Shown: positions 1,646 to 46,956, counted from the stretch's first letter. The stretch: 64,000 nucleotides of DNA from Limisphaerales bacterium (GCA_965242585.1 OZ251460.1:1486692-1550691); one strand, 5' to 3'. The notes: generated by a model not told the origin, from the sequence alone. Translations and numbers: made by a program.

Positions 1646-2432
1646 TCAATCACCGTTTTGGTTTTGGAAAACTGAGGCTTGTTGTCGTTTCTTTTGCATT
1701 CGGCGGCGATGGAAGAACACAAAGCCGAGGGCAAACAGGCCGAAGATGAGGGCGTATTCTTCCGGTTCGGGGATGACTTGGCTGTTGACGACAACTCGCA
1801 CCGCGCCATTGGATTGCGCCGCAAAACCAGCATTCCCCACAGCCCCACGATTATTGAAGGTTCCCGCAAAGAAGTCGCCGATGGGTTTGTTGATAATGCC
1901 GGAGCCCACCCAAGCCGAAGAATTCCCGCTGGAATAGCTCAAACTGCTCCCGGAGACCCGAATCCCTATGACATCTCTAAAAAGAGTACCTCCGTCATCC
2001 AGGAAAAGATTGGCAATGGTTCGGTTAGTGCTGGCAATAGTGATGGTCGGCGTGTTAGTGGCGTTGGCGGCAAAGGTGATATTGGTTCGGCCGCCGCCCG
2101 GAATTCGGGCTCTCACCGAAGCGATGTCTCTGGTGTTGGAACTGGAAAACAAGGGAGACAGAGAGATCGTCTGGTCGTTGGGCTTATTGGCATCGTAAAA
2201 GTCGTTGTTAGAAGACGTAAAAGCCCAAGAGTCTCGAGAGGAGTAGTTTCCGGAGGTTCGGATGTTCCAGTTGTCTTGCGCGGTGGAAGAGCCGCTAAAA
2301 ATCCAAAGGGTTTGGTTGGTGGGATTGTCTTGGCTGGGATAGACGTCGATGATCAACTGCGCTTGGGCTTCGTACCCCCCCCCCCCCGCAAAGGCAGACG
2401 ACGGCCGCTAAGAAAGAGAATTTCCGCTTCAT
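1646..2432 (-). CDS. PEP-CTERM sorting-domain protein, interrupted by a +1 frameshift at a poly-G(13) tract (putative phase-variable gene)
   Basis: The 236-aa ORF (1646-2356) ends in VIPEPEEYALIFGLFALGFVFFHRRRMQKKR, i.e. PEP motif, TM helix and Arg cluster. A signal peptide MKRKFSFLAAVVCLCGGGG starts at ATG 2432 in another frame. The two frames meet at 13 G (plus-strand C, 2375-2387). Confidence 0.75.
2375..2387 (-). repeat. Homopolymeric tract: 13 G on the coding (minus) strand
   Basis: Counted directly: C at 2375-2387 on the plus strand, between the signal-peptide frame and the mature-protein frame of the PEP-CTERM gene. Confidence 0.95.
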
Positions 2433-2618
2433 ATTGATATGCTGGTTCATAACTGTTCCAGTCAAAAATTTCTTTGTTTCTAATCGCTCCGCCGCAACGA
2501 GTCAAGCCCTAAATCACAAAAAAAAAGAGAAAGTTGAGGAAGCGAAGGATGGCCAAGCGGATTCGATGGACCCCAAGCAAAAATTGGCGAACAAAAATTC
2601 CCTCAAATCGACAAGCGG

Positions 2619-15289: not shown

Positions 15290-15871
15290 TTATTGCTTGG
15301 AGTCCGCCGAATTCAGTGATTTAACGGCCTCTTTCCGCTCTTCGTCCCCAATCTTTCCGTCCCCGTCCTTGTCAAACCGTTTGAGAATGTCTTCAGGGCG
15401 CAACCGTTTGCTTGACGGAAACGAAGGAAGGAAAGTTCCTTGATTGGTGGAAACGGCCTCCGGTTTGGACAATAACAGCGCGGAGGAAACCGTTTCCACT
15501 CCGGGAAGAAACACTTGCAGGCGCGGTTTGCCGCTCTTGGAAGAACGGAAAACCGCGTAGTTGAAGTGGCCGAACAACCGTTTCAGCGCCGAGGCTGGCG
15601 GCAAGTCTTCAAAAGTTCCCGAAACAACCACGCCTGAGTCCACGGGGATTTGGACGTCCCAATCCGTCGCCAAAGCAATTTGGGTCAAGACTTTTTCAAT
15701 AGGCCAGTCTTTGAATCCGGCGCTCACTTGGTTTTTCTTTTTGTCCCAAAGAAACCAATCCTCCGCCACATCCTCCGCGCTCAAAGAAAGTGCAAACATC
15801 GCCCAGAAAGTGCAAAACGCCCAAGCAAAGCCCTGTCGTTTATGGAACCAAAAATCTTTCATCGTTTCCAT
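15290..15871 (-). CDS. Hypothetical exported protein with C-terminal EF-hand Ca-binding loop
   Basis: 193 aa with N-terminal hydrophobic segment FAWAFCTFWAMFALSLSA. The central part resembles an STN/secretin-N-like fold. The C-terminus carries DKDGDGKIGDEE, the canonical 12-residue EF-hand loop. Confidence 0.6.
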   Translation of the reverse strand: METMKDFWFHKRQGFAWAFCTFWAMFALSLSAEDVAEDWFLWDKKKNQVSAGFKDWPIEKVLTQIALATDWDVQIPVDSGVVVSGTFEDLPPASALKRLFGHFNYAVFRSSKSGKPRLQVFLPGVETVSSALLLSKPEAVSTNQGTFLPSFPSSKRLRPEDILKRFDKDGDGKIGDEERKEAVKSLNSADSKQ

Positions 15872-16470
15872 TTTCGCAGAAATAGAGGTTTTGGACGATA
15901 TTTTTCTAATGCTTGAAACGCCCGCTTTTCTAACTCCTCGTCAAAATTATTGAGTTCTCCTCTGAGATTGATTTGCATCGCGCAAAGAATCTCTTTCGCA
16001 ATCATTTTGTTGTATTCTCTGCTTTTTCGTTTGCGGATTCTGGAAAAACGAGGCGGACGATGCTTTTCCAACAATCGAAACGCCTGATTTTTCACTAATT
16101 CGTTGAAGTGATTAGGATTACTGCCACTTCCCTCTACAGCCCATTTAATCTTTTCCGCAATCTCTCTGTGCCGAGCCGTGCGTTTTTCCAAACAGCGTTG
16201 ATTCAACTTAACAATCAACCCAATGAGTGATTCTAATGTTGCGAATAATAGCGCAAGAACAGCGGCAACAGCCGCAACATTCGCTCCCGCTAATCCAAGT
16301 ATTTCAAGCCATTCTTCATCGCATTCTTGGAAAATTGTGGCAAAAACAATAAAGTTTCCCAAAATTGAACCAAAGCCGAAATACCAGAATTTCCATTTTT
16401 GAGGAACTGAGAAGAAATCAACTCTCGGTTCTTCTTTAGTCTCGTTTTTTCGATCTGTTTTTCGATCCAT
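15859..16470 (-). CDS. Hypothetical membrane protein with internal AF(R/Q)xLEK(H/Y)RP repeat
   Basis: 203 aa with two predicted TM helices (WYFGFGSILGNFIVFATIF and ANVAAVAAVLALLFATL). A duplicated motif is present: AFRLLEKHRPPRF and AFQALEKYRPKPLF. It overlaps the downstream gene by 13 nt. Confidence 0.5.
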   Translation of the reverse strand: MDRKTDRKNETKEEPRVDFFSVPQKWKFWYFGFGSILGNFIVFATIFQECDEEWLEILGLAGANVAAVAAVLALLFATLESLIGLIVKLNQRCLEKRTARHREIAEKIKWAVEGSGSNPNHFNELVKNQAFRLLEKHRPPRFSRIRKRKSREYNKMIAKEILCAMQINLRGELNNFDEELEKRAFQALEKYRPKPLFLRKWKR

Positions 16471-16556
16471 TCAACAAACCTCTCTTATCCAGCGACCCCA
16501 AAACGACCACGACAGTAAAGCCAGCGAGGCTAATACCCGCGCCAATCATGCAAATT

Positions 16557-17427
16557 TCATAACCGCCCATAACTACCACCTCCTTTCTTCGTTTTCTTTT
16601 GAAATTGACGGAAAAAGATAAAACCAAGCGCAAATAATCCAAACACGAGCGCATATTCCTCTGGTTCGGGGATGACTCGATGGTAGATGCTCACATGAAC
16701 ACCGCCAAAATAAGGGCGGTCGGTGAGGGTTTGAATGCTGTCAAAACCTAATAGACTAAAATGTTCCGAAGCCCTGAAGTCACCAATGGGTTTGTCCATG
16801 ATGCCAGAGCCAAACCATCGAAATGTTTGCCCGTTGGTATAAGACAGATTGCCGCCGCCCGGTGTGCCTCGAATGCCGATTTCGTCAACAGCGGCGTCGT
16901 TCATAAAAATCGAGCCGATGTTTTTAGTGGCGATTCCAGCGGTCATTGTCGGCGTGTTGGTGACGTCGACGTTATCAAACAAGATAGTGTTTCCGCTAAA
17001 CTGCCCAAAACTAGTAGCGCCGGGCAGTCTTCTCGTTATCGAATCGATGTCTTTTGGATGGTTGGTACTGGAAAACAGCGGAGAAATGGAAAACAACTCG
17101 TTGGTTGGCTTGTTAGATGAATAAAAGCCCCCAATGTCTTGGTGGTCTGAAGTTTTCCAAGAGTCTCTTCGGTGGAAGTTTCCGCTACTTCGGATGGAGC
17201 TTCCATAAACAGCGCGTTTGGCGATGTTTGAGTTTATCTCGTTCGGTCCAAAAATCCAAATCGTTTTGTTGTTGTCGTCTTGGCTTGGAAAAACTGAGAT
17301 GGCAAGTTGCGCTTGCCCCCCCCGTCGTTGCCAAAAATCCCGTCAGCGCCAGCCAAAAGAAGCCGAAAGTCGTCCATTTCGTCCACCGTGCATTGAAATC
17401 ACTCATGTCGAAATCACTTTTGCCCAC
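16557..17427 (-). CDS. PEP-CTERM sorting-domain protein (paralogue of 1646-2432), interrupted by a +1 frameshift at a poly-G(8) tract
   Basis: The C-terminus VIPEPEEYALVFGLFALGFIFFRQFQKKTKK is nearly identical to that of the first paralogue. The mature-part frame reads QAQLAISVFPSQDDNNKTIWIFG...SISPLFSSTNHPKD, which parallels AQAQLIIDVYPSQDNPTNQTLWIFSG...SLSPLFSSSNTRD. The signal peptide MSDFNARWTKWTTFGFFWLALTGFLATTGG sits in another frame, and the frames meet at 8 G (17316-17323). Confidence 0.75.
17316..17323 (-). repeat. Homopolymeric tract: 8 G on the coding (minus) strand
   Basis: Counted directly: C at 17316-17323 on the plus strand, at the signal-peptide/mature-protein junction of the second PEP-CTERM gene. 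Confidence 0.95.
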
Positions 17428-17440
17428 TTCGGCGGCGTTG

Positions 17441-20400
17441 TCAAATTTTTATTTTGGAATCATCGGCAACGGCGGACGGCAGGGACAAAAGAAGTCTCCG
17501 CAGTTCTTTGAGTTTGGCTTCCGGCGTTTTTCCGGTGAGACGGGGAAAGCGCCCGTCAAACATGATAAAATCGCGGTTTCTCTCCAGCATCACCTTGTCG
17601 TCTCGAGTTTCGACCGAGCGGAGGTTGCGCTCGCCGGCCAGCCACTTTACTTCAGCAACTAATAAAAGCAATTTTACGGCTCGAGGCAAAGGGCCGTATC
17701 GGTCTCGCAATTCGTTTTTTAGTTGCTTTAGAGAATCTCGGTCGTTGACTTGCGCCAATTTGCGATAGATTTCAATTCTTTGCCGGGTCTCCGCAATATA
17801 ATTGTATGGTAGGCGAGCGATAGTTATAGAAGGCAATTGCAAACTGGTCGACAGGCTCTTGTCGCTTGCCTTTGGCTCTGGCGGCTTTCCGAGTCTTTGC
17901 GCTCCCACGGTTCTCCAAGTTCTTATGCGGCGGGCTTCTCTTGGTTTGTCTCCGGGATTGAGAGCGAGGAAATCGAACTTCACCGGCACTGTTGTTCTGG
18001 GTTTTACGGTTTTTCCTTGAAGTGAGGCCACGCTTTGTTTGAGGAGCTGGCAATAGAGTTCGAAGCCGACTGCGGTGATGTGTCCGCTTTGTTGCGGTCC
18101 TAGCATGTTGCCGGCGCCGCGAATTTCAAGGTCACGCATGGCGATTTTGAAACCGCTGCCCAGGCGGGAGTATTGTTTCATGGCGTGGATTCGCTTGCGA
18201 GCGTCGGACAACAATCCGGCGTGTCGGGGAAGAAGCAAGTAGGCGTAAGCTTGGTGTTTGTAACGGCCTACCCGCCCGCGCAGTTGATATAAATCGCTCA
18301 GTCCGAATCGATCGGCTCGGTCGATGATGATGGTGTTGGCGTTGGGGATATCCAGTCCGCTTTCAATAATGGTCGTCGAGACTAACACGTCGATTTTGCC
18401 GTCGACAAAGTCGATCATTGTTGGTTCCAATGTTTTGGCGGCCATTTGCCCATGCCCGACAACCACGCAGGCTTCAGGAACAAGACGCCGAATTTTCTCG
18501 GCCACTGCGTCGATTGTGGTGACTCGATTGTGCAGAAAGTAGACTTGGCCTTGGCGGTTTAGTTCTTTTTGGATGGCGTCTTGAATGACGCGCTCATCGT
18601 AGGGCATCACAAAGGTTTTGACCGGCAAACGGTCGTGCGGCGGGGTTTCGATAGTGCTCATGTCGCGGGCGCCGACCAGCGCCATGTGCAACGTGCGCGG
18701 AATGGGCGTTGCGCTCAACGTAAGCACATCGACTAATTGGCGCAGCTGTTTGAATTTTTCCTTGTGCGCCACGCCAAAACGTTGCTCTTCGTCAATAATC
18801 GCCAAACCCAGATTTTTGAACGTCACATCATTTTGCACGAGACGATGAGTGCCCACCACAATGTCCGCCGAACCGTTGGCCAACGATTGCAGGACGGCGG
18901 CGCGTCGCTTTTGAAACCGCGAGAGGAGCTCGATTCGGACGGGATAATCCAGCATTCGCTCCGACAGGTTTTTGTAGTGCTGTTGCGCAAGAATCGTCGT
19001 CGGCACCAACATCGCCACCTGTTTGCCGCCCATCACCGCCTTGAACGCCGCTCGAATAGCCACCTCGGTTTTGCCGAAGCCAACGTCGCCGCAAATCAAG
19101 CGGTCCATCGGCTTGCAAGACTCCATGTCCTGTTTGCTACTCTCAATGGCGCGACTTTGGTCGGCTGTTTCCTCGTAGAGAAAGGCGCTTTCAAACTCGC
19201 GCTGCCAATGCGTGTCCGGCGGGAAGGCGTATCCTTCTTTGGACTCGCGCGCCGCTTGAATCGCCAACATCTCTCCGGCCAAATCAACGACCGCCTTCTC
19301 CGCGCGCGCCTTTGCCTTGCTCCATTGATTTCCTCCCAAAACGCTCAGCGCCGGCGAGGCCTTGCCGGCGCCGACGTACTTGCTCACCAAGTGCGCCTCA
19401 ATCACGGGAACATACAACCGCGGCAAAGTCTGTTGCGGATCCCGCGACGCATACTCAATCACCAAACACTCAGGCCCTAAATCCCCCAGGGCTTCGGAAT
19501 CCGGCCCTTCTGAAAACCCAGACGCCGGAAGCATCCGTTGCAACCCGACAAACCGCCCGATGCCGTGTTGCAGATGAACCACATAGTCTCCTTCCTCCAA
19601 ATCGGAAAAATCTATCTCCAGCGCAGACCGCAACGCGGCGGCGTGCTTCGACTTCAACCGCCGAGCCTTCTGCACTTTGTACCGCCCAAAAATCTCGGCA
19701 TCCGTAACCGCCGCCCATCGGACGCTTTCCACCAAAAAACCGCGCCCCAGCATGCCGATTTCAACGCTCAACGACCCGGCGAAGGACTCTTCCGCCCAAC
19801 CCAATTCCGACCAAATTTCCAAGAATCTGTCCCGCTCTCCCGCATTGTTGCAGAAAACATCCACCCGATACCCTTGCCGAAGCCACCGATGCATTTGCTC
19901 GAAAAACTGCCGCCGCCATTGCTCCGCCGCCGGCAAGTCAAGCGCCTCGGCGTTGGACGGGCGATGCGCCTCCAAACTCTCGAAAACGGGAAAACCAACG
20001 CAACCGTCTTCCCCGGCATCCGCCGCCGCAAAATGCGTCCGCTCTCCATCCAAGCCATCCGCCCAGCGCAAAATCCGAATCCCGTTCGCTCGAATGCGAT
20101 TCAGAAAAGTCGGCCAGGTTTCTGAAAAAGGATCATTGTTCGGAACGCGTTCGGCATAGCGCTCGGCCTGCGCTTCCACTTCTTCAGGATCGCACACAAC
20201 CAGAACCGCCGACTTGGGCAGATAACCGTCCAAACTGGAAACTATTCTGCTTTGCCCGGACTTGGGCGCCTGATCCATCTCTTGCAACAAAATGCCAACT
20301 TCGCCGGCAGGAGAGACGACTGCGGAGTCCATTTTCTGGCGCGACATCTGAGTTTGCGGGTCAAACTGCCGAATCGAATCGACTTCGTTCCCAAAAAACT

Positions 20401-21100
20401 CGACGCGAATCGGCCACGGACTTGCCAAAGGAAACACGTCCACAATGCCGCCGCGCAGTGCCAGCTCCCCTTTCTGGGTGACTTTCGCTTCAGGTTCGTA
20501 TGCTTGCTCCTCCAACCATTCCACAAAGTCCAGAGGATCCAAAGATTGTCCCGCCTGAATTGTCTTTACTCGGCGCGCCAGCTCTTGGGGCGGAAAAGTT
20601 TTCTGCAACACGGCGGCAACACTCGCAACCACCAGCGGCGCCGCTTCGCCCGCCCTTCCGCGAAACGCTCGCAAAGCCATCAAAGTTTCCAGCCGTTCGC
20701 TAATCACGTCGACGTGCGAAAGATTGGCCTCGTGCGGCAAACTCTCCCAAGCGGGAAAAAAAGCCGGCGGCGGACACTCAAAGGCTTTCCCTTTTTTCTT
20801 TGCCGTCGGCTTTTGATTTGGACGCGCCGCCAGCCAGTTTTGCCAAGTTTGGAGGTCTTGGTGCAGATTTTCTTGCTGCTTTGACCCCGAAGTCACCAAC
20901 AGAATTGGAGCTTGGGGATCCAATCGGTGAAGCAGAGCCGCCAAAAAAGGCCACGAAGACGGCGCCAAGTTGGCTTCCACATTGTCCCCGGAAACCCCAA
21001 GACTCGCCCGCAACGCTTCGGCGATTTCCTTCCCGGCAAAACGAGACTGGAACCGATCGGCCGGACTTGGTTTTGGCGGCGAGGGTTTGTTTTGGATCAA
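17441..21100 (-). CDS. mfd: Transcription-repair coupling factor Mfd
   Basis: CarD-like motif [16 protein letters not shown]. Helicase motifs are [36 protein letters not shown] and QLRGRVGR, followed by a TRCF C-terminal domain. The ORF is open to 21307, but that would overlap the upstream gene by 175 nt. TTG at 21100 is my guess for the start and is uncertain. Confidence 0.9.
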
Positions 21101-21132
21101 GGAGGCTTCTATTGTTCTAGTTGCCGTGTTCG

Positions 21133-22977
21133 TCACTTTTCCCAAATTTCGATCGTTCGACCGAGGGGAACGTCTTCCACCGCCTGCGCCTTGCCTCCCG
21201 GCCAAATGATTTCCAAACTTTGGACCGCCGTCGCCATTCCCAAGCCAATTGTGACCGGCAACTCCGATTGCGACAAGTAGCCTCGAAAAGGCATCACCTG
21301 CCTCCAAAGCGACCGCCCATCAACCACCAGATGAATCCAAGCGCCAATGCCTTCCCGATTCTGGCGAACACCCCGCAAGCGAATTCGAACCCAATTTCCG
21401 GTTGCCGGAAGCTCGTTGCGAAACAAACGCGGCGGCCCGTCAATCTGCGTCAGCACAAAATCCAAGTCTCCATCGGCGTCAATGTCCGCAAACGCAGAGC
21501 CTCGCCCAACAATCGGCTCAAACAAGTCGCCGCCCGCCTGCTCGGCCTTTACTTCAAGAAACCGGCATCCATGCTCTGGGCCGCTGTTCCAAAACAACTG
21601 GGCGGGCTGTCGATATTGCTGGCTCTTCTGAATTTGAGAAATGGCCTCCTCCAAATGGCCGTTGGCAGTCAACAAATCCTGCCAGCCATCCAAATCGTAG
21701 TCGAAAAAGAACAACCCGAACTTCAAAAGCAGACGGCTGGCAGGACCAATTCCCGCCGGAACGGCCTCGTCCGTGAAAATCATGGGACGGTTCTGCTCGA
21801 CGTAAAGCGCCGTCATTTCGTTGGCAAAGTTTCCAATGCCCACCGCCAACGCCCCGTCCTCGCGATACCGCGCCGTGTCAATGCCCATCGCTCCCCGCGC
21901 CTTGCCGTAAGCGTCATAAGCAATCCCCGTCAGCGCCCCAACCTCCAGAAAAGTTCGATCCCAACGGTTGCTAAAAACAAAGTTGCGAACCGTGTCGTTG
22001 GCCACAACCAAGTCCATCCAACCATCCCGATTCAAATCCACCGGCGCCGCTCCCAACGACTTCGCTTCAGGCACGCCCGTCGCCCGATTCGCCACCTGAA
22101 CGCCAGCTGACTCCGACGCGTCTTCAAACGAACCATCTCCTCGATTCAAGAAAAGACGCGGAAACGAGCCTTCAAAATTCATCGGCTGCCCGTATGCCCG
22201 GCCTATCCCCACTAAAGTGCTGCCTAACTGGAAGTCAATCTCCCGGCTCCACTTCACATAGTTGCCGACAAACAAATCCAAATCGCCGTCGTTCTCGACG
22301 TCAAACCACGCAGCGCAAGTGCTCCATTCAGACGCCAACCCGCCCACGCCCGCCAACGCGGTCACATCGGCAAACCGTCCCTCGCCCACATTTTGGAACA
22401 AACGATTTCGCCCCACGGCGGTGAAATAAACATCCGGCCGGCCGTCGCCGTCATAGTCGGCAATAGCGGCGCCCATTCCGTAAAAAGGCACATCCAAGCC
22501 GGAACCGTCCGTCACTTCCGTGAACCGTCCGTCGCCATCGTTTTCGTAAAGCGCCGCCGCCGTCGACCAAGCAGTTTCCGACCAACCCGTCCCGTTCACA
22601 AAGAGCAAATCTTGATCGCCGTCGCCATCGAAATCAAAAAAAGCCACGCCCCCGCCCATCGTTTCCGGCAACAGCTTGTCCCCTTCCGCGCCGCTGTTAT
22701 GAACAAAGTCAATTCCCGCTTCCGCAGCAATTTCCCGAAACACAACCCTTGGAATCACCGCCGCAGATTCTTTGGGAATTTCAGGAGCCGCCAACTCGGT
22801 AATCCGCTCAGGCGTCCGCTCCGCAAAACAGCCGCGCAGCAAAAACAACCCCCCAGCGAAAAGCAGAAGCGCAACAAGAGCAAAAGCCGACCACCAAAAC
22901 GCCCGGCCAATGACCGCATCATCCTCGTGATCCGTGACCTCCGCTTCCTCGTCCGCGCCAAAATCCGAATTTCGCAT
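21133..22977 (-). CDS. FG-GAP repeat / ASPIC-UnbV (CRTAC1-family) protein, N-terminally membrane-anchored
   Basis: Six Ca-binding FG-GAP-like loops are present: FDFDGDGDQDLLF, ADYDGDGRPDVYF, DVENDGDLDLFVGNY, DLNRDGWMDLVVAND, FDYDLDGWQDLL, ADIDADGDLDFVL. The C-terminus is an UnbV/ASPIC-type segment: GIGAWIHLVVDGRSLWRQVMPFRGYLSQSELPVTIGLG. Confidence 0.85.
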   Translation of the reverse strand: MRNSDFGADEEAEVTDHEDDAVIGRAFWWSAFALVALLLFAGGLFLLRGCFAERTPERITELAAPEIPKESAAVIPRVVFREIAAEAGIDFVHNSGAEGDKLLPETMGGGVAFFDFDGDGDQDLLFVNGTGWSETAWSTAAALYENDGDGRFTEVTDGSGLDVPFYGMGAAIADYDGDGRPDVYFTAVGRNRLFQNVGEGRFADVTALAGVGGLASEWSTCAAWFDVENDGDLDLFVGNYVKWSREIDFQLGSTLVGIGRAYGQPMNFEGSFPRLFLNRGDGSFEDASESAGVQVANRATGVPEAKSLGAAPVDLNRDGWMDLVVANDTVRNFVFSNRWDRTFLEVGALTGIAYDAYGKARGAMGIDTARYREDGALAVGIGNFANEMTALYVEQNRPMIFTDEAVPAGIGPASRLLLKFGLFFFDYDLDGWQDLLTANGHLEEAISQIQKSQQYRQPAQLFWNSGPEHGCRFLEVKAEQAGGDLFEPIVGRGSAFADIDADGDLDFVLTQIDGPPRLFRNELPATGNWVRIRLRGVRQNREGIGAWIHLVVDGRSLWRQVMPFRGYLSQSELPVTIGLGMATAVQSLEIIWPGGKAQAVEDVPLGRTIEIWEK

Positions 22978-25968: not shown

Positions 25969-27750
25969 CTAGAACTTATCCGGGCCGGGCCAAATTTCTA
26001 TCACCAACTCGGCCAACTGCCGGCTGCGTTTCCAAATAGCGGCTTCATCCCATACAGCGGGAGGGTTTTCGAGCAGATTTTTGTTGAGGAATAGGCCGCT
26101 GTGCTTGCCAAGAGTTTCCCGCTTTTCTTCCCAAGCACCATTGGAAAGGCGCGCATTCAATTTTCCCGAAGTCAAAGTCAAGTTGCCAATGGCTTTGACC
26201 GCCTTGTTGCGATCTTCCGTCGATTCTTCTTTATCCACAACCGCGGACGGCAAGGGCCAATTCTTTTCCCATTTCTGCGGCAGAATATGCTCAACAGTTA
26301 ATTGACTGGTATTGCCCAGGGTTTCCGCCATATCGCTTCGCATCTGCTTTTCTATGACTTCCATCACCATTTTTTGTTTAGCAGCACTCTTACAATGCAT
26401 TGAATTGTCGCCAAGTTCTCCAAGCACCATGTTGTCTTTGGGCCAAAGACGATGATCTACCGTCCCTGACGAAAACTTCTCGATTAGAAAATTATCTGCG
26501 TTGTGAGGGCCAATTTCGCGCAAAATCATCTCGAGGAAAAACTTGTTGAGCCCCGTAGGACGCAGACCACAGAGCATCCGCCGCACCATATAACTTTCCA
26601 AGACTTGCACAAACCGTATCCGCCGCTCTTCGGAGACTTCAGCAGTATACAACCATAGCAACAAAGGCATTGTTGTGCCACCTACCTCCATAGTTTTTAT
26701 TCGCGACAAGAAAGTTTCTATTCCCGGATATATGGCTTTCTCCATATCCATGTATACCTTGCCGGCCTTCCTAACACCTGCGACAATATCTTCTATGGAT
26801 TGTTTACAGTCCATGTTCTTTGGATTGATGTATTCGCGAAAAGATGCCGCTAAACGATCCGCCGAGACCTCCTTCCGAGTGAGCACAATCATCCAATAAT
26901 TCAGGAAGCGATCCAGATGAATTCTTTTCAGGCGGCCGTCTCTTATGTCAGCATGCCACCATTCATTTTCAAACATTCCCCAAAGGTCGTTGGCTTTGTC
27001 GGAATCATCAACCACCTTGGACTCATACATCACGGTGTTTTTGATGAGATCCGATTGATTCAGAGATTCTCCCCGGGCATTCAGAGTTTCAAAAATGATA
27101 TGCGGTTCCTCGTCTTCGTCCAAGTCAATGGCGGCCGTTTGAAAACACTTGGTGAGTGTTTCTTCCAGAGCGTTTGACCGGTTCTGGCGACCCGTTGGAT
27201 CCTCGTTTAACCATTTCTCTACCTCGGTAACAAAGTATTCGTACGCTCCCCGGATCCCGGAATTTGCGTCCATTTTGCCCTTTTTGCCATTGCGGATTAC
27301 TCCTTGAAAAGCGTATTTGTCGTTGGAATTGGACTGGCGAATTTTGGTCTCGTTGTCGTTATTCTTGGCCCAGTAGCTTTCTTCGTTAAAAGTCAGACGC
27401 CGCAAGCGAGTCGCTCTTTCGGAATCATTCAAACCGGTAAAGACCTCTTGCGCCGCCCGGATGAGCAGTTGCAGGGTGGTGAGCCGTTGTTGCCCGTCCA
27501 CGACAATCCGCTTTTCGACTTCCGAACTGTCGTTATTCTGCCGTTGCAAGACGATGGCGCCCATGAAGTGCGGGCGCAACTTGGCGTTCTGTTGGCGGCA
27601 GAGCCAGCCATCAGCAAGGTTGCGAACGTCGTCCCAAAGAGGCACCCATTGCTCGCCCTTTTTCCAAGCATAGGGGCGTTGAAACTGCGGTATTCGATAA
27701 GATACCGGCTTGCCGAACAAGGTTTGTAAATCGACCATTTCCGCTTTCAT
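25969..27750 (-). CDS. GmrSD-like type IV (modification-dependent) restriction enzyme: DUF262 + DUF1524
   Basis: The N-terminus has IPQFQRPYAW and VVDGQQRLTTL, the ParB-like DUF262 signature. The C-terminus has QLTVEHILPQKW...IGNLTLTSGKLNARLSN, the His-Me finger of DUF1524. The gene and its flanks are visibly AT-richer than the neighbours. Confidence 0.85.
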   Translation of the reverse strand: MKAEMVDLQTLFGKPVSYRIPQFQRPYAWKKGEQWVPLWDDVRNLADGWLCRQQNAKLRPHFMGAIVLQRQNNDSSEVEKRIVVDGQQRLTTLQLLIRAAQEVFTGLNDSERATRLRRLTFNEESYWAKNNDNETKIRQSNSNDKYAFQGVIRNGKKGKMDANSGIRGAYEYFVTEVEKWLNEDPTGRQNRSNALEETLTKCFQTAAIDLDEDEEPHIIFETLNARGESLNQSDLIKNTVMYESKVVDDSDKANDLWGMFENEWWHADIRDGRLKRIHLDRFLNYWMIVLTRKEVSADRLAASFREYINPKNMDCKQSIEDIVAGVRKAGKVYMDMEKAIYPGIETFLSRIKTMEVGGTTMPLLLWLYTAEVSEERRIRFVQVLESYMVRRMLCGLRPTGLNKFFLEMILREIGPHNADNFLIEKFSSGTVDHRLWPKDNMVLGELGDNSMHCKSAAKQKMVMEVIEKQMRSDMAETLGNTSQLTVEHILPQKWEKNWPLPSAVVDKEESTEDRNKAVKAIGNLTLTSGKLNARLSNGAWEEKRETLGKHSGLFLNKNLLENPPAVWDEAAIWKRSRQLAELVIEIWPGPDKF

Positions 27751-42105: not shown

Positions 42106-45100
42106 TTACGAGCATCCTAAGCTTTCGCCGCAGTTCAGGCACTTGTAACAAGCGCCGTTGCGCACCGTGACGTGGCCGCAACAGGGACAGATTGGCGCGT
42201 CTTGTTGAAAGTGAGCCACTGCGTCGCTGATCGTCTCAATCCGTTTGCGGCGACGAGGCATGGAAGGCAAAGACGTCGGGTGAGACGGATCGTTTCTTTG
42301 CAAAATTTCCGCCTCCTTATTCCGCGGCAGCTCCGGAACGGGGCGGTTCACTTTTTTTTTTACTTCCGATTCAAGTCCGGGCATTACTAATTCTACTTGA
42401 TTGGATTCTTGCGCATCGTCGGTGGCGGTGAATTCTTGCGACATCCAGCGGAATACGTAATCGGTAATGGAGGTTGCTTGGCGGATGTTGGGGTTTTTTG
42501 TCCAGCCGGAGGGTTCGAAGCGTTGATGAGAGAACTTTCGCGCAAGGATGTCTAGGGGGACGCCGTATTGTAGCGCCATGCTTGTCAGTGTGCCGATGGT
42601 GTCCATGAGTCCGCCGATGGTAGATCCTTCTTTGGCCATGGTGACGAACAATTCGCCGGGCGATCCGTCCGCAAATAATCCCACAGTCAGGTAGCCTTCG
42701 TGTCCGGCGATGTCGAATTTGTGCGTCTTTGCCATCCTTGTTGCCGGGAGCCGGCGTCTCACAGGTTGGGTGGAGGCATGTTTTAGGCTTTCCACCTGTT
42801 CTTTCAACTGGGCGACTTGTTTTAGCAGGTCTTCATCAGCTGCCGACGAGTCTTCGCCGGCCTTTGACGTACTGAGCGGTTGGGATCGTTTGGAACCGTC
42901 GCGGTAGATTGCTACGCACTTGAGTCCGAGACGCCAGGCCTGCACGTAGGCTTCTTGAATTTCCGCTATCGAACAGTGGTTTGGCAAGTTGACTGTTTTA
43001 GAAATGGCGCCGCTGATGAAGGGTTGGGCGGCGGCCATCATCTTCAAATGCGCCGAGTAGTGAATGCTGCGAGTTCCTTGAAAGGGCTTGAAGGCGCAGT
43101 CAAACACTTGAAGATGTTCCGGCTTCAGTCCACTGACAAAGGCGTTTCCGTCCTTGCGGACGTCTTCGATGGTGTCGTGTTCTTCCACGTGCGTGATGAT
43201 TTGCTGGACGGCGGGTTCTTCATAGCCTAAGCGTTGCAATGCTTCCGGCACGGTTTGGTTGACGATTTTGAGCATGCCGCCGCCGGCCAGAAGTTTGTAC
43301 TTCGCCAGCGCGATGTCGGGTTCGATGCCGGTTGTGTCGCAGTCCATCATGAACGAGATCGTGCCGGTAGGCGCCAGCACGGTGACCTGCGCATTGCGGA
43401 ATCCGTATTTTTCTCCCGCTGATTCGGCTCGTTGCCAGCAAGCTTGGGCCTCGTCTTTTAGATGGTCGAATGAGCTTGCCGCGATGGCGTCCACCGCACC
43501 TCGATGCCGACGCACTACGGCTTGCATAAAGTCTGCATTGCTCTCAGCTACGGGGCGGTCGACGCCGGCGCATTTGGCGTCTCGCCAGCCCTGGAACGGC
43601 CCCATAGCGGCGGCGATAGCGGCGGACTGCGTGTATGCTTCGCCGGTCATAATCGCCGTGATGGCGCCGGCCAGCGCCCGGGATTCCTGCGAGTCGTAAG
43701 GCAGTCCGTAGCTCATAATCAACGCGCCCAAGTTGGCGTAGCCCAGTCCCAAAGTGCGGAAAATGTGGGAGTTTTCGGCAATGGCGGGCGTGGGATAGCT
43801 GGCGTTGTCCACCAAAATTTCTTGGGCAGTGATAAAAATGCGCACCGCGGCTTTGAATCGCTCCGCGTCAAAACCATCGGCGCCAGAGAATTTCATTAAG
43901 TTCAAGGAAGCCAAGTTGCAGGCAGTGTTGTCGAGGAAGACGTATTCGGAGCAAGGGTTGGTGGAGTGGATTGGCGCAGTTCCCTTGCACGTATGCCAAC
44001 GCTGGATGGCGGAGTCGAATTGAAGGCCGGGATCGCCGCACAGATGAGCGCCTTCGGCAATCTTGCGGAGGAGATTCGCAGCGTCTTTTTTTTCCAGAGG
44101 CTCGCCGGTGGTGATGGCGCGAGTCCACCAAGATCGGCCTTCAATGGCAGCTTGCATGAAATCGTCGCTGACGCGGACCGAGAGATTCTCATTTTGGTAC
44201 ATAATGCTCCCATAAGCGTCCCCATTGTACGAGCCGTCGTATCCGGCGTCGATCAAAGCCCAAGCCTTTTTCTCCTCCTTTTGTTTTGCGTCGATGAACT
44301 CCTCGATGTCTCCGTGCCAATCGCGCAAAGTGTTCATCTTGGCAGCGCGGCGGGTTTTGCCCCCCGATTTCACCACGTTGGCCACTTGGTCGTAAACGCG
44401 CAGGAACGACAACGGCCCGCTGGGTCGCCCGCCGCCGCTGAGCTTCTCTCGGCTGGATCGCAAGGGAGTTAAATCCGTGCCGGTGCCGGAACCGTGCTTG
44501 AAGAGCATCGCCTCGCTAGCCGCCAAGCGCATGATGTCTTCCATGTTGTCCTCCACAGATTGGATGAAGCAGGCGCTACACTGCGGATATTCGTATTGAG
44601 TGGGCGACCGAGCCGCCTTATTCGCGCTCCGATGGTAAAACCAGTTGCCCTGCGCCGAGTTCTTTCCCACGCGGTATTGATGCCAGAGGCCGACGTTGAA
44701 CCAGACCGGAGAATTGAAAGCGCCGAATTGATGCAAACAAAGCCAGCACAACTCCGCGTAAAACACCTCGCCGTCGACCTCGCTGAAATAACCGTCCCGA
44801 ACCCCCCAATCCGCAATCGTCCGACACACCCGATGGATCATTTGGCGGACGGAACGCTCTCGCTCCGCAGTTCCCTGCTCGCCGTAAAAATACTTGGACA
44901 CCACCACTTTCGCCGCCAGCAACGACCACGATTTCGGCACTTCCACGTCGTCTTGGCGGAAAATTGTGCCGCCGCGCTCGTCGGTGATCTCCACACTTCG
45001 CTTCTCCCAAGCCACCGAATCAAAGGGATCCTCCCCCTCTTCGCTGAAAACTCGCTCAATCGACAACCCCTGGCGGCAATCTGCGGCGGTTGCAGACCGC

Positions 45101-45126
45101 ACGGACGGTTCACGGATGCTTATCAT
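42106..45126 (-). CDS. nrdJ: Adenosylcobalamin-dependent ribonucleotide reductase (class II)
   Basis: 1006 aa. Motifs seen: VSKYFYG, QFGAFNSPVWFN, the active-site loop NPCSEYVFLDNTACNLASLNL, APTGTISFMMDCDTTGIEP, IYRDGSK. The C-terminus is a Zn ribbon: CPCCGHVTVRNGACYKCLNCG. Confidence 0.93.
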   Translation of the reverse strand: MISIREPSVRSATAADCRQGLSIERVFSEEGEDPFDSVAWEKRSVEITDERGGTIFRQDDVEVPKSWSLLAAKVVVSKYFYGEQGTAERERSVRQMIHRVCRTIADWGVRDGYFSEVDGEVFYAELCWLCLHQFGAFNSPVWFNVGLWHQYRVGKNSAQGNWFYHRSANKAARSPTQYEYPQCSACFIQSVEDNMEDIMRLAASEAMLFKHGSGTGTDLTPLRSSREKLSGGGRPSGPLSFLRVYDQVANVVKSGGKTRRAAKMNTLRDWHGDIEEFIDAKQKEEKKAWALIDAGYDGSYNGDAYGSIMYQNENLSVRVSDDFMQAAIEGRSWWTRAITTGEPLEKKDAANLLRKIAEGAHLCGDPGLQFDSAIQRWHTCKGTAPIHSTNPCSEYVFLDNTACNLASLNLMKFSGADGFDAERFKAAVRIFITAQEILVDNASYPTPAIAENSHIFRTLGLGYANLGALIMSYGLPYDSQESRALAGAITAIMTGEAYTQSAAIAAAMGPFQGWRDAKCAGVDRPVAESNADFMQAVVRRHRGAVDAIAASSFDHLKDEAQACWQRAESAGEKYGFRNAQVTVLAPTGTISFMMDCDTTGIEPDIALAKYKLLAGGGMLKIVNQTVPEALQRLGYEEPAVQQIITHVEEHDTIEDVRKDGNAFVSGLKPEHLQVFDCAFKPFQGTRSIHYSAHLKMMAAAQPFISGAISKTVNLPNHCSIAEIQEAYVQAWRLGLKCVAIYRDGSKRSQPLSTSKAGEDSSAADEDLLKQVAQLKEQVESLKHASTQPVRRRLPATRMAKTHKFDIAGHEGYLTVGLFADGSPGELFVTMAKEGSTIGGLMDTIGTLTSMALQYGVPLDILARKFSHQRFEPSGWTKNPNIRQATSITDYVFRWMSQEFTATDDAQESNQVELVMPGLESEVKKKVNRPVPELPRNKEAEILQRNDPSHPTSLPSMPRRRKRIETISDAVAHFQQDAPICPCCGHVTVRNGACYKCLNCGESLGCS

Positions 45127-45207
45127 GGCAAATTCAAAATCGGCAAAACCAAAATGTTTCTCCTAATGCTACCGTTTGTCAAACTAAAGATTGGAAAAAT
45201 CTCCAAG

Positions 45208-46956
45208 ATGGACAACCCAATTTTTAGCCTTCGGGAAAAAGATTCAACTTCTTTCGTGGATTATCTCCCCGCTCTGCGGCGGACAATCGTTGACTCTGGC
45301 GGCGCGAGGAGGCAAGTTGGCTTTGTGGATTCAACGACGACCGCCAACTGGTTGCTGTATGGAGATTGTCTGACGTTCTTGCGGGAATGGAAGTGGGATT
45401 TAGTGGACTTAATCTATCTCGATCCGCCGTTCAACAGCAACCGCTCCTACAACGCCATTTACAAAGACGCTACCGGCCGGCCTCTGCCCGCCCAGATCGA
45501 AGCCTTTTGCGATATGTGGCAACTGGACGGCCACTCCGAGCGCGCCCTGCAAAACCTGCCAAAACTTGCCCAGCAGATGAACGTCTCTCCCGTCATCGTC
45601 GATATTTTGCGCATTTGGGCAAACACTTTGCGCCAAACGAACCCGCAGCTACTGGCCTATCTGATTTACATGACCGAACGGCTGATTGGCTTGAAAAGCA
45701 TTTTGAAACCGACCGGCTCGCTGTATTTGCACTGCGACCCCACCGCCTCGCACTACCTCAAAATCACTTTGGACGGCATCTTCGGCCCCGCCAACTTCCG
45801 CAACGAAATCATCTGGAAACGAACTGTTCGCGGATTCAAGGGGTCTCAGTTTCTTCCCCGCAAATTTAACACGAACACAGACACGATCCTTTACTACGCC
45901 AATGGAAAAGAGTCTGTTTTCCGCATGGACAGAGTGCTGGAGCCGTACTCCCCGGAGTATTTAGAGCAGGCGTTCAAGCTAAAAGACGAGAAGGGCAAGT
46001 ATTATTTGGACGTTGCGTTCAATCGTCGGGGTGCCGGCGCTCGCCCTAATCTTTGCTACGAATGGAAGGGCTTTTATCCGCCGCATCCTTCCGGTTGGAA
46101 AGTTGGAAGGGCGCGAATGGAAGAGTTGGAAAAGAGCGGAGAACTTGTTGTCCAGAATGATAATCTTTACCGCAAAATCCGCCCCAAAGCGGGAAAAATC
46201 CGCAACAATCTCTGGGACGACGTTCCCGAAGCCAAAGGTGATGAGCGTTTGGGTTTTCCGACGCAGAAGCCGCTGGCGTTGTTGGAACGCATTATCCAAG
46301 CATCCAGCAACGAGGGCGATTTGGTTTTGGATCCGTTTTGCGGTTGCGGCACAACCGTCGAAGCGGCGCACAAGCTGGAAAGACGATGGATCGGCATTGA
46401 CATCGCCATTCACGCGGTCAAACGGGTGAGCGCGGTGCGTTTGGAAGACCAGCTCGGACTGCTGGCGGGGCGGGATTATGTGTTGGACGGCATCCCCAAA
46501 GATGTGGAAGGCGCTCGGCAACTATGGGAGCAAGACCCGTGGCAGTTCCAAAAATGGGCGGTGGAGCAAGTGGGCGGCTTTGTCACCGCCAAACGTACGG
46601 CGGACGGCGGCATTGACGGGCGCTTATGGTTTGCGGGCGAGGGAAATCGTTTGGAAGAGATGATTTTGGAAGTGAAAGGCGGCAAGCCGAACATCCAGTT
46701 TGTGCGGGCGTTGGCCGGGGTGCGCCAGCAACGCCAGGCGGCGATGGCCGGTTTGATTTTGTTGTCCAGTCCGTCGCTGGTTCAGCGGCGGAACTTCGAG
46801 CGGGAAATGGCCGGCTCGGGAAGTGTGGAAGTGTTGGGCCAATCTTATGCGCGGTTGCAGCTATTGACGGTGGAAGAGATACTGGCGGGCAAGCGTTTTC
46901 AAACCCCCGGCGTAGCCGGCAAAACCGCCTCCGCCCCCGTCCTCCCCATGGGATAA
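45208..46956 (+). CDS. Beta-class N6/N4 DNA methyltransferase fused to a C-terminal Mrr-like PD-(D/E)xK domain
   Basis: Motif IV (DLIYLDPPFNSNRSYN) precedes motif I (FPTQKPLALLERII...VLDPFCGCGTTVEAA), which is the beta-class order. The C-terminal ~200 aa read FQKWAVEQVGGF...ADGGIDGRLWF...ILEVKGGK...VRALAG...AGLILLSS, matching the Mrr catalytic-domain pattern. The listed 820-aa ORF starts far upstream only because it is open antisense to nrdJ; the real start is ATG 45208 or 45154. Confidence 0.85.
   Translation: MDNPIFSLREKDSTSFVDYLPALRRTIVDSGGARRQVGFVDSTTTANWLLYGDCLTFLREWKWDLVDLIYLDPPFNSNRSYNAIYKDATGRPLPAQIEAFCDMWQLDGHSERALQNLPKLAQQMNVSPVIVDILRIWANTLRQTNPQLLAYLIYMTERLIGLKSILKPTGSLYLHCDPTASHYLKITLDGIFGPANFRNEIIWKRTVRGFKGSQFLPRKFNTNTDTILYYANGKESVFRMDRVLEPYSPEYLEQAFKLKDEKGKYYLDVAFNRRGAGARPNLCYEWKGFYPPHPSGWKVGRARMEELEKSGELVVQNDNLYRKIRPKAGKIRNNLWDDVPEAKGDERLGFPTQKPLALLERIIQASSNEGDLVLDPFCGCGTTVEAAHKLERRWIGIDIAIHAVKRVSAVRLEDQLGLLAGRDYVLDGIPKDVEGARQLWEQDPWQFQKWAVEQVGGFVTAKRTADGGIDGRLWFAGEGNRLEEMILEVKGGKPNIQFVRALAGVRQQRQAAMAGLILLSSPSLVQRRNFEREMAGSGSVEVLGQSYARLQLLTVEEILAGKRFQTPGVAGKTASAPVLPMG

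What the first reader, a model, noticed from the sequence alone, without database searches (positions are those of the whole stretch)
16557..17427. Second PEP-CTERM paralogue is also switched off by a poly-G tract (8 G) at the same structural position
The signal-peptide frame ...FFWLALTGFLATTGG enters 8 G (17323-17316) and leaves out of frame, terminating after ~45 junk codons. The adjacent frame continues QAQLAISVFPSQDDNNKTIWIFG... through to the PEP-CTERM anchor. Seven or ten G would restore ...ATTGG(G)QAQLAISVF. There are thus two diverged paralogues, each with a G-run encoding the Gly stretch just before the AQ(A)Q cleavage site, and each exactly +1 out of frame. This argues for a conserved switch rather than two independent accidents. 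The three small downstream same-strand ORFs (to 15290) could be co-regulated.
Basis: partly seen in the sequence, partly recalled or inferred. Interest (0 to 1): 0.65.

Follow-up and report, generated by a model that had tools for sequence, protein, structure and literature searches.

The report
Poly-G on/off switch in surface-protein gene
A run of eight G's in the signal-peptide region of a predicted cell-surface protein gene leaves it out of frame, and comparison with about 80 related genes points to a reversible slippage on/off switch of the kind known from pathogens, here in an uncultured Verrucomicrobiota (Limisphaerales) lineage.

Summary
The minus-strand gene 16557-17406 has G8 at 17323-17316. 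With 8 G it stops after 73 codons. With 7 or 10 G it gives a 282-aa protein with a signal peptide, a beta-rich domain and a PEP-CTERM-like tail. Paralogue A (1646-2450) has G13 at the same structural position and is also +1.

A G8 alone is not rare by chance; the position is what counts. The syntenic orthologue of B has G18 at the same site. That of A has G16.

Of 80 family loci from two complete Limisphaerales genomes, 39 carry G9-G27 at this site: 9 in frame, 15 at +1, 15 at +2. All 39 keep an intact mature ORF. Twelve carry a poly-C (poly-Pro) tract in the n-region; 11 were analysed for frame. Two carry a G tract next to a TTGACA box.

Near-identical copies differ only in tract length. Gly runs inside the mature domain never use GGG GGG GGG.

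Best explanation: a slipped-strand phase-variation locus, OFF in this assembly, in a large family of independently switchable surface proteins. The mechanism is classical (Neisseria pilC and opa); the lineage, protein family and scale are new. No reads were available, so the true tract length and actual switching are untested.

The parts
17316..17323 (-). G8 homopolymer, the proposed slippage switch. It encodes the Gly stretch of the signal-peptide c-region.
   Evidence: The same site holds G18 in L002, G12 in L083 and G9 in L003.
17324..17406 (-). Start codon (ATG 17406) plus the signal-peptide n- and h-regions: MSDFNARWTKWTTFGFFWLALTGFLATT.
   Evidence: The ATG and this peptide are conserved in B-type relatives (alignment A2; P0016, P0005, P0027). 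The signal-peptide assignment is by inspection only.
16557..17315 (-). Open frame for the mature domain (QAQLAISVFPSQDD..., 252 codons plus stop). It is +1 relative to the start-codon frame when the tract is 8 G.
   Evidence: AlphaFold2 model: beta-rich, pLDDT 74.7, pTM 0.71. No Pfam, PDB-sequence or Foldseek match.
16593..16676 (-). PEP-CTERM-like sorting tail: VIPEPEEYALVFGLFALGFIFFRQFQKK.
   Evidence: TIGR02595 covers model positions 1-24 of 24. It scores 15.6 bits on a 49-aa piece and 17.6 bits on a 28-aa piece; the cut-off is 16. I-P-E-P is invariant in the family alignment A1.
17185..17187 (-). Premature stop reached in the OFF (8 G) frame.
   Evidence: ORF 17185..17427.
17407..17456 (-). 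Conserved 5' cassette AAATAAAAATTTGACAACGCCGCCGAAGTGGGCAAAAGTGATTTCGAC. Its TTGACA box (17444-17439) overlaps the mfd stop codon. Putative own promoter.
   Evidence: The cassette is identical in L002 and L083, although L083 has a different upstream neighbour. The consensus promoter scan found nothing here, so the promoter role is inferred.
1646..2450 (-). Paralogue A, with G13 at 2375-2387 at the same structural position. Also +1 out of frame.
   Evidence: Its syntenic orthologue L031 has G16.
16436..16570 (-). Small 44-aa membrane-peptide ORF with an AGGAGG Shine-Dalgarno sequence. Its ATG lies 11 nt before the stop codon of B.
   Evidence: Conserved downstream of L002 at 60% identity.
15290..16470 (-). 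Two further same-strand ORFs: 203 aa with 2 TM segments, and 193 aa with a weak EF-hand match. They overlap or abut each other, which looks like an operon.
   Evidence: The same order occurs in L002 (64% and 84% identity). The 203-aa ORF also follows the family gene in L004.

Best explanation
Gene B is a translational phase-variation (contingency) locus.

Shown by sequence:
- A run of G's sits between the hydrophobic core of the signal peptide and the (A)QAQ cleavage motif.
- The tract is read as Gly codons. Only lengths of 7, 10, 13 and so on join the start codon to the roughly 250-codon mature frame.
- In this assembly the length is 8, so translation ends after a 73-aa product and the gene is OFF.

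Inferred:
- Slipped-strand mispairing during replication adds or removes G's at high frequency, so the gene flips ON and OFF heritably but reversibly.
- The Gly stretch would be cleaved off with the signal peptide, so in-frame length changes cost the mature protein nothing.
- When ON, the protein is exported by Sec. Its PEP-CTERM-like tail is then handled by an exosortase-type system, and the beta-rich domain is displayed on the cell surface.

Gene B is one of a large paralogous family. The scan found 145 relatives in two related genomes. Most of the 80 examined carry their own G or C tract, so a clonal population would display many combinations of surface proteins. That could hedge against phage, grazers or a host. 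The selective agent is speculative.

The downstream 44-aa, 203-aa and 193-aa ORFs may be affected by polarity when B is OFF. This too is inferred.
For: - The tract and both frames are as described.
- The syntenic orthologue has G18 at the same site. Other B-type copies have G12, G9 or no tract.
- The orthologue of paralogue A has G16, against G13 in the window.
- In 80 family loci from two Limisphaerales genomes, 39 have G9-G27 at this site, split 9 in frame, 15 at +1 and 15 at +2. That does not differ from one third each (p=0.23).
- All 39 keep an intact mature ORF. The 6 family loci with internal stops all lack a tract.
- In 457 kb sampled, 52 of 56 G/C runs of 8 or more lie within 250 nt 5' of a family mature start. 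That zone is 4.9% of the sequence.
- All 6 near-identical paralogue pairs (97-100% over 700 nt) differ in tract length.
- L085 and L018 are 99.97% identical over 3345 nt. Both carry the tract at the same site, as G17 and G18, and this flips OFF to ON.
- At least five 90%-identity protein clusters hold both an in-frame signal-peptide form and a wrong-frame N-terminus form.
- Inside mature domains, GGG makes up 17% of Gly codons. Gly triplets are GGC GGC GGC or mixed codons, never GGG GGG GGG, and the longest internal G run is 6 or less. The homopolymer itself is therefore what is kept at this site.
- The family also uses poly-C (poly-Pro) tracts in the n-region and a G tract next to TTGACA.
- The window assembly reads through other homopolymers without frameshifts. 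A class II ribonucleotide reductase is intact across A10 and A8 runs, with a full-length Pfam match.
Against: - No reads were available, so heterogeneity of the tract within this organism's population is unobserved.
- The related complete genomes look like long-read MAGs, and contig names suggest HiFi-type assemblers. That reading rests on my own knowledge. Lengths of 15-27 G there are unreliable, and part of the ON/OFF scatter and of the one-G differences could be consensus noise.
- G8 is at the low end of lengths that switch fast in known systems.
- A bare G8 is not statistically unusual.
- The signal-peptide and PEP-CTERM calls rest on inspection and a borderline HMM score.
- No exosortase gene lies in the window.
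- The function of the mature domain is unknown.
Confidence: 0.75

Rival explanations
1. Homopolymer-length miscall. The real genome has 7 (or 10) G, the gene is simply intact, and the frameshift is an assembly or consensus artefact.
For: Both window frameshifts sit exactly at the two longest G runs, and both are +1. Related assemblies differ by single G's at otherwise near-identical loci, as consensus noise would also produce.
Against: The window reads A10, A9, T8 and C7 runs inside long ORFs without frameshifts. G8 is short enough to be called reliably by most platforms; this rests on my own knowledge. Even if the count is wrong, the tract and its family-wide conservation remain, so the switch reading stands and only the present state changes. 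Scaffold-style assemblies, probably short-read, also carry G12 and G17AGGG tracts.
Confidence: 0.12
2. Decaying pseudogene. B and A are redundant paralogues being lost, and the G run is merely where the first disabling mutation happened.
For: Both copies are out of frame. The family is large and redundant, and 6 of 80 relatives do have internal stops.
Against: After the tract, 252 codons (B) and 242 codons (A) stay open with all family-invariant residues. All of about 30 out-of-frame tract-bearing relatives also have intact mature ORFs, whereas the broken ones lack tracts. The tract is kept as a pure GGG run against the gene's own codon habit.
Confidence: 0.06
3. Non-heritable recoding. RNA polymerase slippage or ribosomal frameshifting on the G run yields a fixed fraction of in-frame product from every allele, so the tract works as an attenuator rather than an on/off switch.
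For: Long homopolymers are known to provoke transcriptional slippage (established knowledge). Tracts of 15-27 G in relatives are long enough. All three frames are tolerated in genomes.
Against: G8 is short for efficient slippage, and G:C hybrids slip less than A:T (established knowledge, not tested here). This reading does not explain why tract length itself changes between near-identical copies. It can coexist with DNA-level switching.
Confidence: 0.07

Closest known systems
Neisseria gonorrhoeae / meningitidis pilC1 and pilC2 (poly-G tract in the signal-peptide coding region)
   Same: A homo-guanine tract inside the signal-peptide region. RecA-independent frameshifts switch the gene on and off. 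Two paralogous copies exist, of which usually one is expressed (PMC5354566, read).
   Different: The protein is unrelated: a pilus tip adhesin rather than a small beta-rich PEP-CTERM-type protein. No sequence or fold similarity was found. PilC has two copies rather than dozens, and it belongs to a human pathogen rather than an uncultured Limisphaerales lineage.
Neisseria opa multigene family (CTCTT repeats in the leader-peptide region)
   Same: A family of up to 12 surface-protein genes, each with its own repeat tract in the leader-peptide coding region. Each switches independently, so a cell expresses none to several (PMC5354566). This is the closest analogue of the family-level design seen here.
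   Different: Opa uses a pentanucleotide repeat rather than a homopolymer. Opa proteins are outer-membrane beta-barrels. The family here is much larger (145 relatives in two genomes) and uses three different tract placements.
Poly-G contingency loci of Campylobacter jejuni, Helicobacter pylori and Haemophilus (from my own knowledge)
   Same: G/C homopolymers of about 8-13 nt at the 5' ends of surface-related genes, with tens of loci per genome and stochastic ON/OFF combinations.
   Different: Those loci are spread over many unrelated gene families, mostly glycosyltransferases and restriction-modification genes. Here one paralogous family holds nearly all of the long tracts sampled (52 of 56), and tracts reach 27-32 nt.
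Akkermansia muciniphila long homopolymers
   Same: The same phylum. Its genome paper notes 17 genes with homopolymers longer than 8 bp, including G8 and C10 in capsule genes, and suggests phase variation (PMC3048395).
   Different: That case involves a few scattered genes, no multigene surface-protein family, no signal-peptide placement and no comparative evidence of length change.
PEP-CTERM / exosortase protein-sorting system (TIGR02595)
   Same: A C-terminal IPEP motif, a hydrophobic helix and a basic cluster at the extreme C-terminus, with a full-length match to the 24-position model.
   Different: Scores straddle the cut-off (15.2-17.6 against 16). There is no Pfam PF07589 hit. No exosortase gene was seen in the window. 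I found no paper linking PEP-CTERM proteins with repeat-mediated phase variation.

Membership tests
Simple-sequence-repeat contingency locus (translational phase variation) | A homopolymer or short repeat of hypermutable length inside the 5' coding region | tested here: met
   G8 at 17323-17316, 83 nt after the ATG. G13 in paralogue A.
Simple-sequence-repeat contingency locus (translational phase variation) | Changing the repeat length by 1-2 units restores or breaks one long ORF | tested here: met
   7 or 10 G give a 282-aa protein. 8 or 9 G give early stops.
Simple-sequence-repeat contingency locus (translational phase variation) | The tract is conserved in position but variable in length between orthologues, strains or near-identical copies | tested here: met
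   Window G8 against syntenic L002 G18. Gene A G13 against L031 G16. L085 G17 against L018 G18 with 99.97% identical flanks. All 6 near-identical paralogue pairs differ.
Simple-sequence-repeat contingency locus (translational phase variation) | OFF alleles keep the downstream ORF intact, which indicates reversibility | tested here: met
   All 39 G-tract loci have an intact mature ORF, although 30 are out of frame. Window genes A and B are both intact after the tract.
Simple-sequence-repeat contingency locus (translational phase variation) | Length heterogeneity within a clonal population, or a measured switching rate | not testable with these tools
   No reads or cultures. Both metagenome scans found nothing useful.
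PEP-CTERM / exosortase substrate | A C-terminal PEP motif, transmembrane helix and basic cluster that match TIGR02595 or PF07589 | tested here: inconclusive
   TIGR02595 scores 15.6 and 15.2 bits on C-terminal pieces and 17.6 bits on the 28-aa motif; the cut-off is 16 and the match covers model positions 1-24 of 24. Full-length proteins give no hit at E<=1, and Pfam gives none.
PEP-CTERM / exosortase substrate | An N-terminal Sec signal peptide | tested here: met
   By inspection only, with no predictor available: a basic n-region (R, K), the hydrophobic stretch TTFGFFWLALTGFLATT and a G-Q-A|Q site in the repaired protein. In-frame homologues share the same architecture.
PEP-CTERM / exosortase substrate | An exosortase (EpsH/Xrt) encoded in the same genome | not testable with these tools
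   None among the window ORFs scanned with Pfam. The rest of the genome is not available.
Neisseria Opa / PilC protein families | Sequence or fold homology of the protein | tested here: not met
   No Pfam family, no PDB sequence match at E<=1, and no Foldseek match better than E=0.1 or TM 0.25. The resemblance is in mechanism only.

The most novel reading that the evidence does not exclude
A Limisphaerales (Verrucomicrobiota) lineage keeps a repertoire of roughly 70 paralogous PEP-CTERM-type surface proteins per genome. Most are individually switched by very long homopolymers placed in three different ways: poly-G in the signal-peptide c-region, poly-C (poly-Pro) in the n-region, and poly-G beside the -35 box. 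This would be an antigenic-variation-like system on a scale matching or exceeding classical pathogens, concentrated in one gene family, in an uncultured bacterium of unknown, possibly host-associated, habitat. The shared 5' cassettes and mosaic 90%-identity clusters hint that the tracts may also serve as junctions for shuffling leader cassettes and mature domains.
Probability: 0.55. Interest if true: 0.75.

Novelty: new member of a known kind. Interest (0 to 1): 0.6.

Why it matters
Repeat-driven contingency loci are textbook features of host-adapted pathogens such as Neisseria, Haemophilus, Campylobacter and Helicobacter. This case would carry the strategy into uncultured Verrucomicrobiota and into the PEP-CTERM/exosortase class of surface proteins. 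I found no report of repeat-mediated switching for that class.

The scale is unusual. In about 5% of the sampled sequence, one family holds 52 of the 56 long G/C tracts seen.

There are two practical consequences:
- Gene callers mis-annotate these genes. They produce wrong-frame N-termini or truncated starts.
- Polishing or 'frameshift-correcting' pipelines would erase real biology.

The finding also supplies a concrete set of loci where long-read metagenomes could measure phase-state frequencies in natural populations.

Tried and rejected
- **Chance.** A G8 alone is expected about 2.4 times per shuffled window, so the run by itself is not evidence. The argument rests on homologous position.
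- **General assembly sloppiness.** Rejected. Long housekeeping ORFs are intact: Mfd at 1288 aa, class II RNR at 1006 aa across A10 and A8 runs, and proteins of 2783 and 1852 aa.
- **Function of the mature domain.** Pfam, NCBIfam, a PDB sequence profile and AlphaFold2 plus Foldseek all gave nothing significant. The weak top Foldseek hits to collagen-adhesin beta-sandwiches (E 0.1, TM 0.25) are not usable.
- **Same-locus variants in JGI metagenomes.** A degenerate flank pattern found nothing. The family profile found only two C-terminal-motif look-alikes.
- **Consensus promoter and terminator scan.** Nothing at the conserved 5' cassette, so the promoter role of the TTGACA box is only inferred.
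- **Lipoprotein reading of '...CLC-GGGG'.** Considered for A-type leaders and rejected by inspection: there is no lipobox, and the conserved AQA|Q motif fits signal peptidase I.
- **Habitat.** Sample names (PANK22-1_SAMN12291530 and similar) and literature searches did not establish it.
- **Literature.** Searches for prior description of this family or of PEP-CTERM phase variation by repeats found none. That is not proof of absence.

Full report
**What is in the window**

On the minus strand, directly after the mfd gene (17441-21307), lies a gene that starts at ATG 17406; an in-frame GTG lies at 17427. The mfd TGA stop lies inside a TTGACA box.

The gene reads MSDFNARWTKWTTFGFFWLALTGFLATT and then enters eight G's at 17323-17316. 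I translated it with 7 to 10 G:
- With 8 G the frame runs into 43 junk codons and stops at 17187-17185.
- With 7 or 10 G it continues as GG(G)QAQLAISVFPSQDD... for 252 more codons, to VIPEPEEYALVFGLFALGFIFFRQFQKK...* at 16557.

Paralogue A (1646-2450) has G13 at 2387-2375 in the same structural place, and 12 or 15 G restore it. The two repaired proteins are 41% identical (E 2e-49).

They are the only family members in the window. They are its only ORFs with a PEP-type tail. They also hold its only G/C runs of 8 or more.

**Is it more than chance?**

A G8 alone is not. Dinucleotide-preserving shuffles give a mean of 2.4 G8 matches per window. What is non-random is that the two longest G runs fall at the same codon position of two diverged paralogues. 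Comparative data then settle the matter.

**Assembly quality**

The window reads through A10, A9, T8 and C7 runs without breaking genes. One example is a class II ribonucleotide reductase with a full-length Pfam match across A10 and A8 runs. ORFs of 2783, 1852, 1288 and 1006 codons are intact. General homopolymer sloppiness is therefore unlikely, although a G-specific miscall cannot be excluded without reads.

**The protein**

- No Pfam or NCBIfam family matches the full-length proteins.
- The C-terminal tail matches TIGR02595 (PEP_CTERM) over the whole 24-position model. Scores are 15.2-17.6 bits against a cut-off of 16, which is borderline.
- An AlphaFold2 model of the mature part is beta-rich (pLDDT 74.7, pTM 0.71). 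It has no significant PDB neighbour by fold (best E 0.1, TM 0.25) or by sequence profile.
- The family is small worldwide: 262 clusters at E<=1e-3 among 1.84 billion representatives.
- No exosortase gene is in the window.

**Relatives**

A protein search found 234 unnamed homologues. A genome scan found 145 relatives, all in two complete MAGs labelled Limisphaerales bacterium, OZ241891.1 and OZ242022.1. The best 80 were kept as L001-L080.

L002 is the syntenic orthologue of B. Mfd is 91% identical upstream, and the 72-aa, 203-aa and 193-aa ORFs follow downstream at 60%, 64% and 84% identity. It has G18 at exactly the same site and is also +1.

An alignment of B-type 5' regions shows:

| Copy | Tract |
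|---|---|
| window B | G8 |
| L002 | G18 |
| L083, a scaffold-style ENA contig | G12, in frame |
| L003 | G9 |
| L001 | none |
| L004 | none |

A 50-nt 5' cassette with a TTGACA box is identical in the window, L002 and L083, even though L083 has a different upstream gene. The orthologue of A is L031, with G16.

**Family-wide pattern**

- Of the 80 loci, 39 have G9-G27 between the signal-peptide core and the AQAQ motif. Nine are in frame, 15 are +1 and 15 are +2. This does not differ from one third each (p=0.23).
- All 39 keep an intact mature ORF of about 230 codons. The six loci with internal stops all lack a tract.
- Twelve loci carry a C10-C32 tract in the signal-peptide n-region. In the 11 analysed for frame it follows four or five codons after the ATG and reads as poly-Pro; 6 are in frame and 5 are out of frame.
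- L041 and L050 have G14 and G16 directly after TTGACAAAC, about 95 nt upstream of the ATG. That placement suggests promoter-spacer switching.
- In the 457 kb sampled, 52 of 56 G/C runs of 8 or more lie within 250 nt 5' of a family mature start.
- Inside mature domains GGG is only 17% of Gly codons. Gly triplets are GGC GGC GGC or mixed, never GGG GGG GGG, and the longest internal G run is 6 or less. The homopolymer, not merely glycine, is what is maintained.

**Hypermutability**

- Six of six paralogue pairs with 97-100% identical flanks over 700 nt differ in tract length. Examples are G10 against G11, G18 against G14, and G20 against G11.
- L085 (an ENA contig) and L018 (OZ241891.1) are 99.97% identical over 3345 nt. 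Both carry the tract at the same site, as G17 and G18, and the predicted protein changes from MRGGGGGYDAQAQ... (wrong-frame start) to MKHKLSLLVAVVCLCGGGGGGYDAQAQ....
- At least five 90%-identity clusters contain both an in-frame leader form and a wrong-frame or truncated form.
- Among the 138 fetched homologues I classified 36 as tract-ON, at least 24 as wrong-frame and 18 as starting at the cleavage site.

**Caveat on technology**

The complete MAGs and some ENA contigs carry names typical of long-read assemblers; this reading rests on my own knowledge. Exact lengths of 15-27 G are unreliable there, and single-G differences may partly be consensus noise. The tracts themselves, their positions, the codon-usage contrast and the intact OFF ORFs do not depend on exact lengths. 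G8 in the window is short enough that the call is probably right.

**Mechanism**

The best-supported reading (confidence 0.75) is a slipped-strand contingency locus. Tract length sets the reading frame, and the gene is OFF in this assembly. The Gly stretch lies in the part of the signal peptide that is cleaved off, so in-frame length changes are free. Many paralogues switch independently.

- Shown: tract, frames, positional conservation with length change, and intact OFF ORFs.
- Inferred: replication slippage, export, cleavage at AQA|Q, exosortase handling, surface display, polarity on the three downstream ORFs, and the selective agent.

Rivals are a miscalled length (0.12), transcriptional or ribosomal recoding (0.07) and pseudogene decay (0.06).

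**Comparison with known systems**

The mechanism is that of Neisseria pilC, which has homo-G tracts in the signal-peptide region. At family level it resembles Neisseria opa: up to 12 genes with CTCTT repeats in the leader region, switching independently (PMC5354566). The proteins are unrelated, so the resemblance is by analogy, not by membership.

Within the phylum, the Akkermansia genome paper noted 17 genes with homopolymers longer than 8 bp and suggested phase variation (PMC3048395). Searches combining PEP-CTERM, Verrucomicrobia or Limisphaerales with phase variation, contingency loci or homopolymers found no description of this family.

**Verdict**

This is a new member of a known kind of system. 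It is of moderate to high interest because of the lineage, the protein class and the scale.

One oddity is unexplained. All nine tracts of 9-13 G in the two reference genomes, and both window tracts, are out of frame, while in-frame alleles with 2-4 Gly do exist in metagenomes.

Noticed in passing
L007, L010, L011, L013, L021, L024, L045, L051, L060, L066, L072 (about 90-105 nt before position 2501): A second leader type in the same family carries poly-C tracts of 10-32 nt right after ATG plus 4-5 codons. They read as poly-Pro (MNHEN-Pn-R..KPLALGAF...LEQSQAQ). Six are in frame and five are out of frame.
   Followed up: partly
L041:2318-2335 and L050:2321-2340 (approx.): G14 and G16 tracts directly after a TTGACAAAC box, about 95 nt upstream of the ATG of a third leader type. 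The placement suggests promoter-spacer (transcriptional) switching rather than frameshifting.
   Followed up: partly
L007:465-485 and L007:595-612; L013:516; L066:5587: Long G/C tracts (G21, C18, G18, C19) outside the family. The two in L007 lie in the 3' part of a leucine-rich-repeat-like ORF, reading as poly-Gly and poly-Pro. The other two were not examined.
   Followed up: partly
window 16436-16570 (-), 15859-16470 (-), 15290-15871 (-): A 44-aa membrane-peptide ORF with a strong AGGAGG Shine-Dalgarno sequence starts 11 nt before the stop of B. A 203-aa two-TM protein and a 193-aa secreted-looking protein with a weak EF-hand match follow. The order is conserved in L002, and the 203-aa ORF also follows the family gene in L004.
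   Followed up: partly
window 17439-17444 (-): The mfd stop codon TGA (17441-17443) lies inside the TTGACA box of gene B's conserved 5' cassette. The putative promoter of B therefore overlaps the end of mfd.
   Followed up: no
proteins P0046/P0121/P0122 and P0092/P0136/P0138: Members of one 90%-identity cluster share near-identical mature domains but have different leader peptides and tract contexts. This suggests mosaic recombination with a junction at or near the tract.
   Followed up: no
window B against L002 and neighbours: The family gene is only 57% identical between syntenic orthologues, while flanking mfd is 91% and the 193-aa ORF is 84% identical. The surface protein evolves much faster than its neighbours.
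   Followed up: no
L003, L012, L014, L019, L035, L037, L038, L039, L058; window 2375-2387 and 17316-17323: All nine tracts of 9-13 G in the two reference genomes, and both window tracts (G8, G13), are out of frame. That is 11 of 11, with a chance probability of about 0.012. In-frame copies there all have 15 G or more. Unexplained.
   Followed up: partly
window 2518-2526 (-: T9): A T9 run lies just upstream of a TTGACT box in front of paralogue A. Similar T-rich stretches precede the TTGACA box in L041 and L050. It may be an UP-element-like feature or another variable tract.
   Followed up: no
window 25969-27750 (-) and 44494-46956 (+): A GmrSD-type restriction endonuclease and an N6/N4 DNA methylase are encoded in the window. 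The methylase ORF as listed overlaps the 5' end of the ribonucleotide reductase gene on the other strand, so its true start is probably further downstream.
   Followed up: no
proteins P0003, P0015, P0020, P0058: Some B-type homologues are predicted as fusions of about 360 aa with an N-terminal coiled-coil and TM region (KIDGVESKLEAKIDGVE...). This is probably an upstream gene read into the family gene, or a real N-terminal extension.
   Followed up: no
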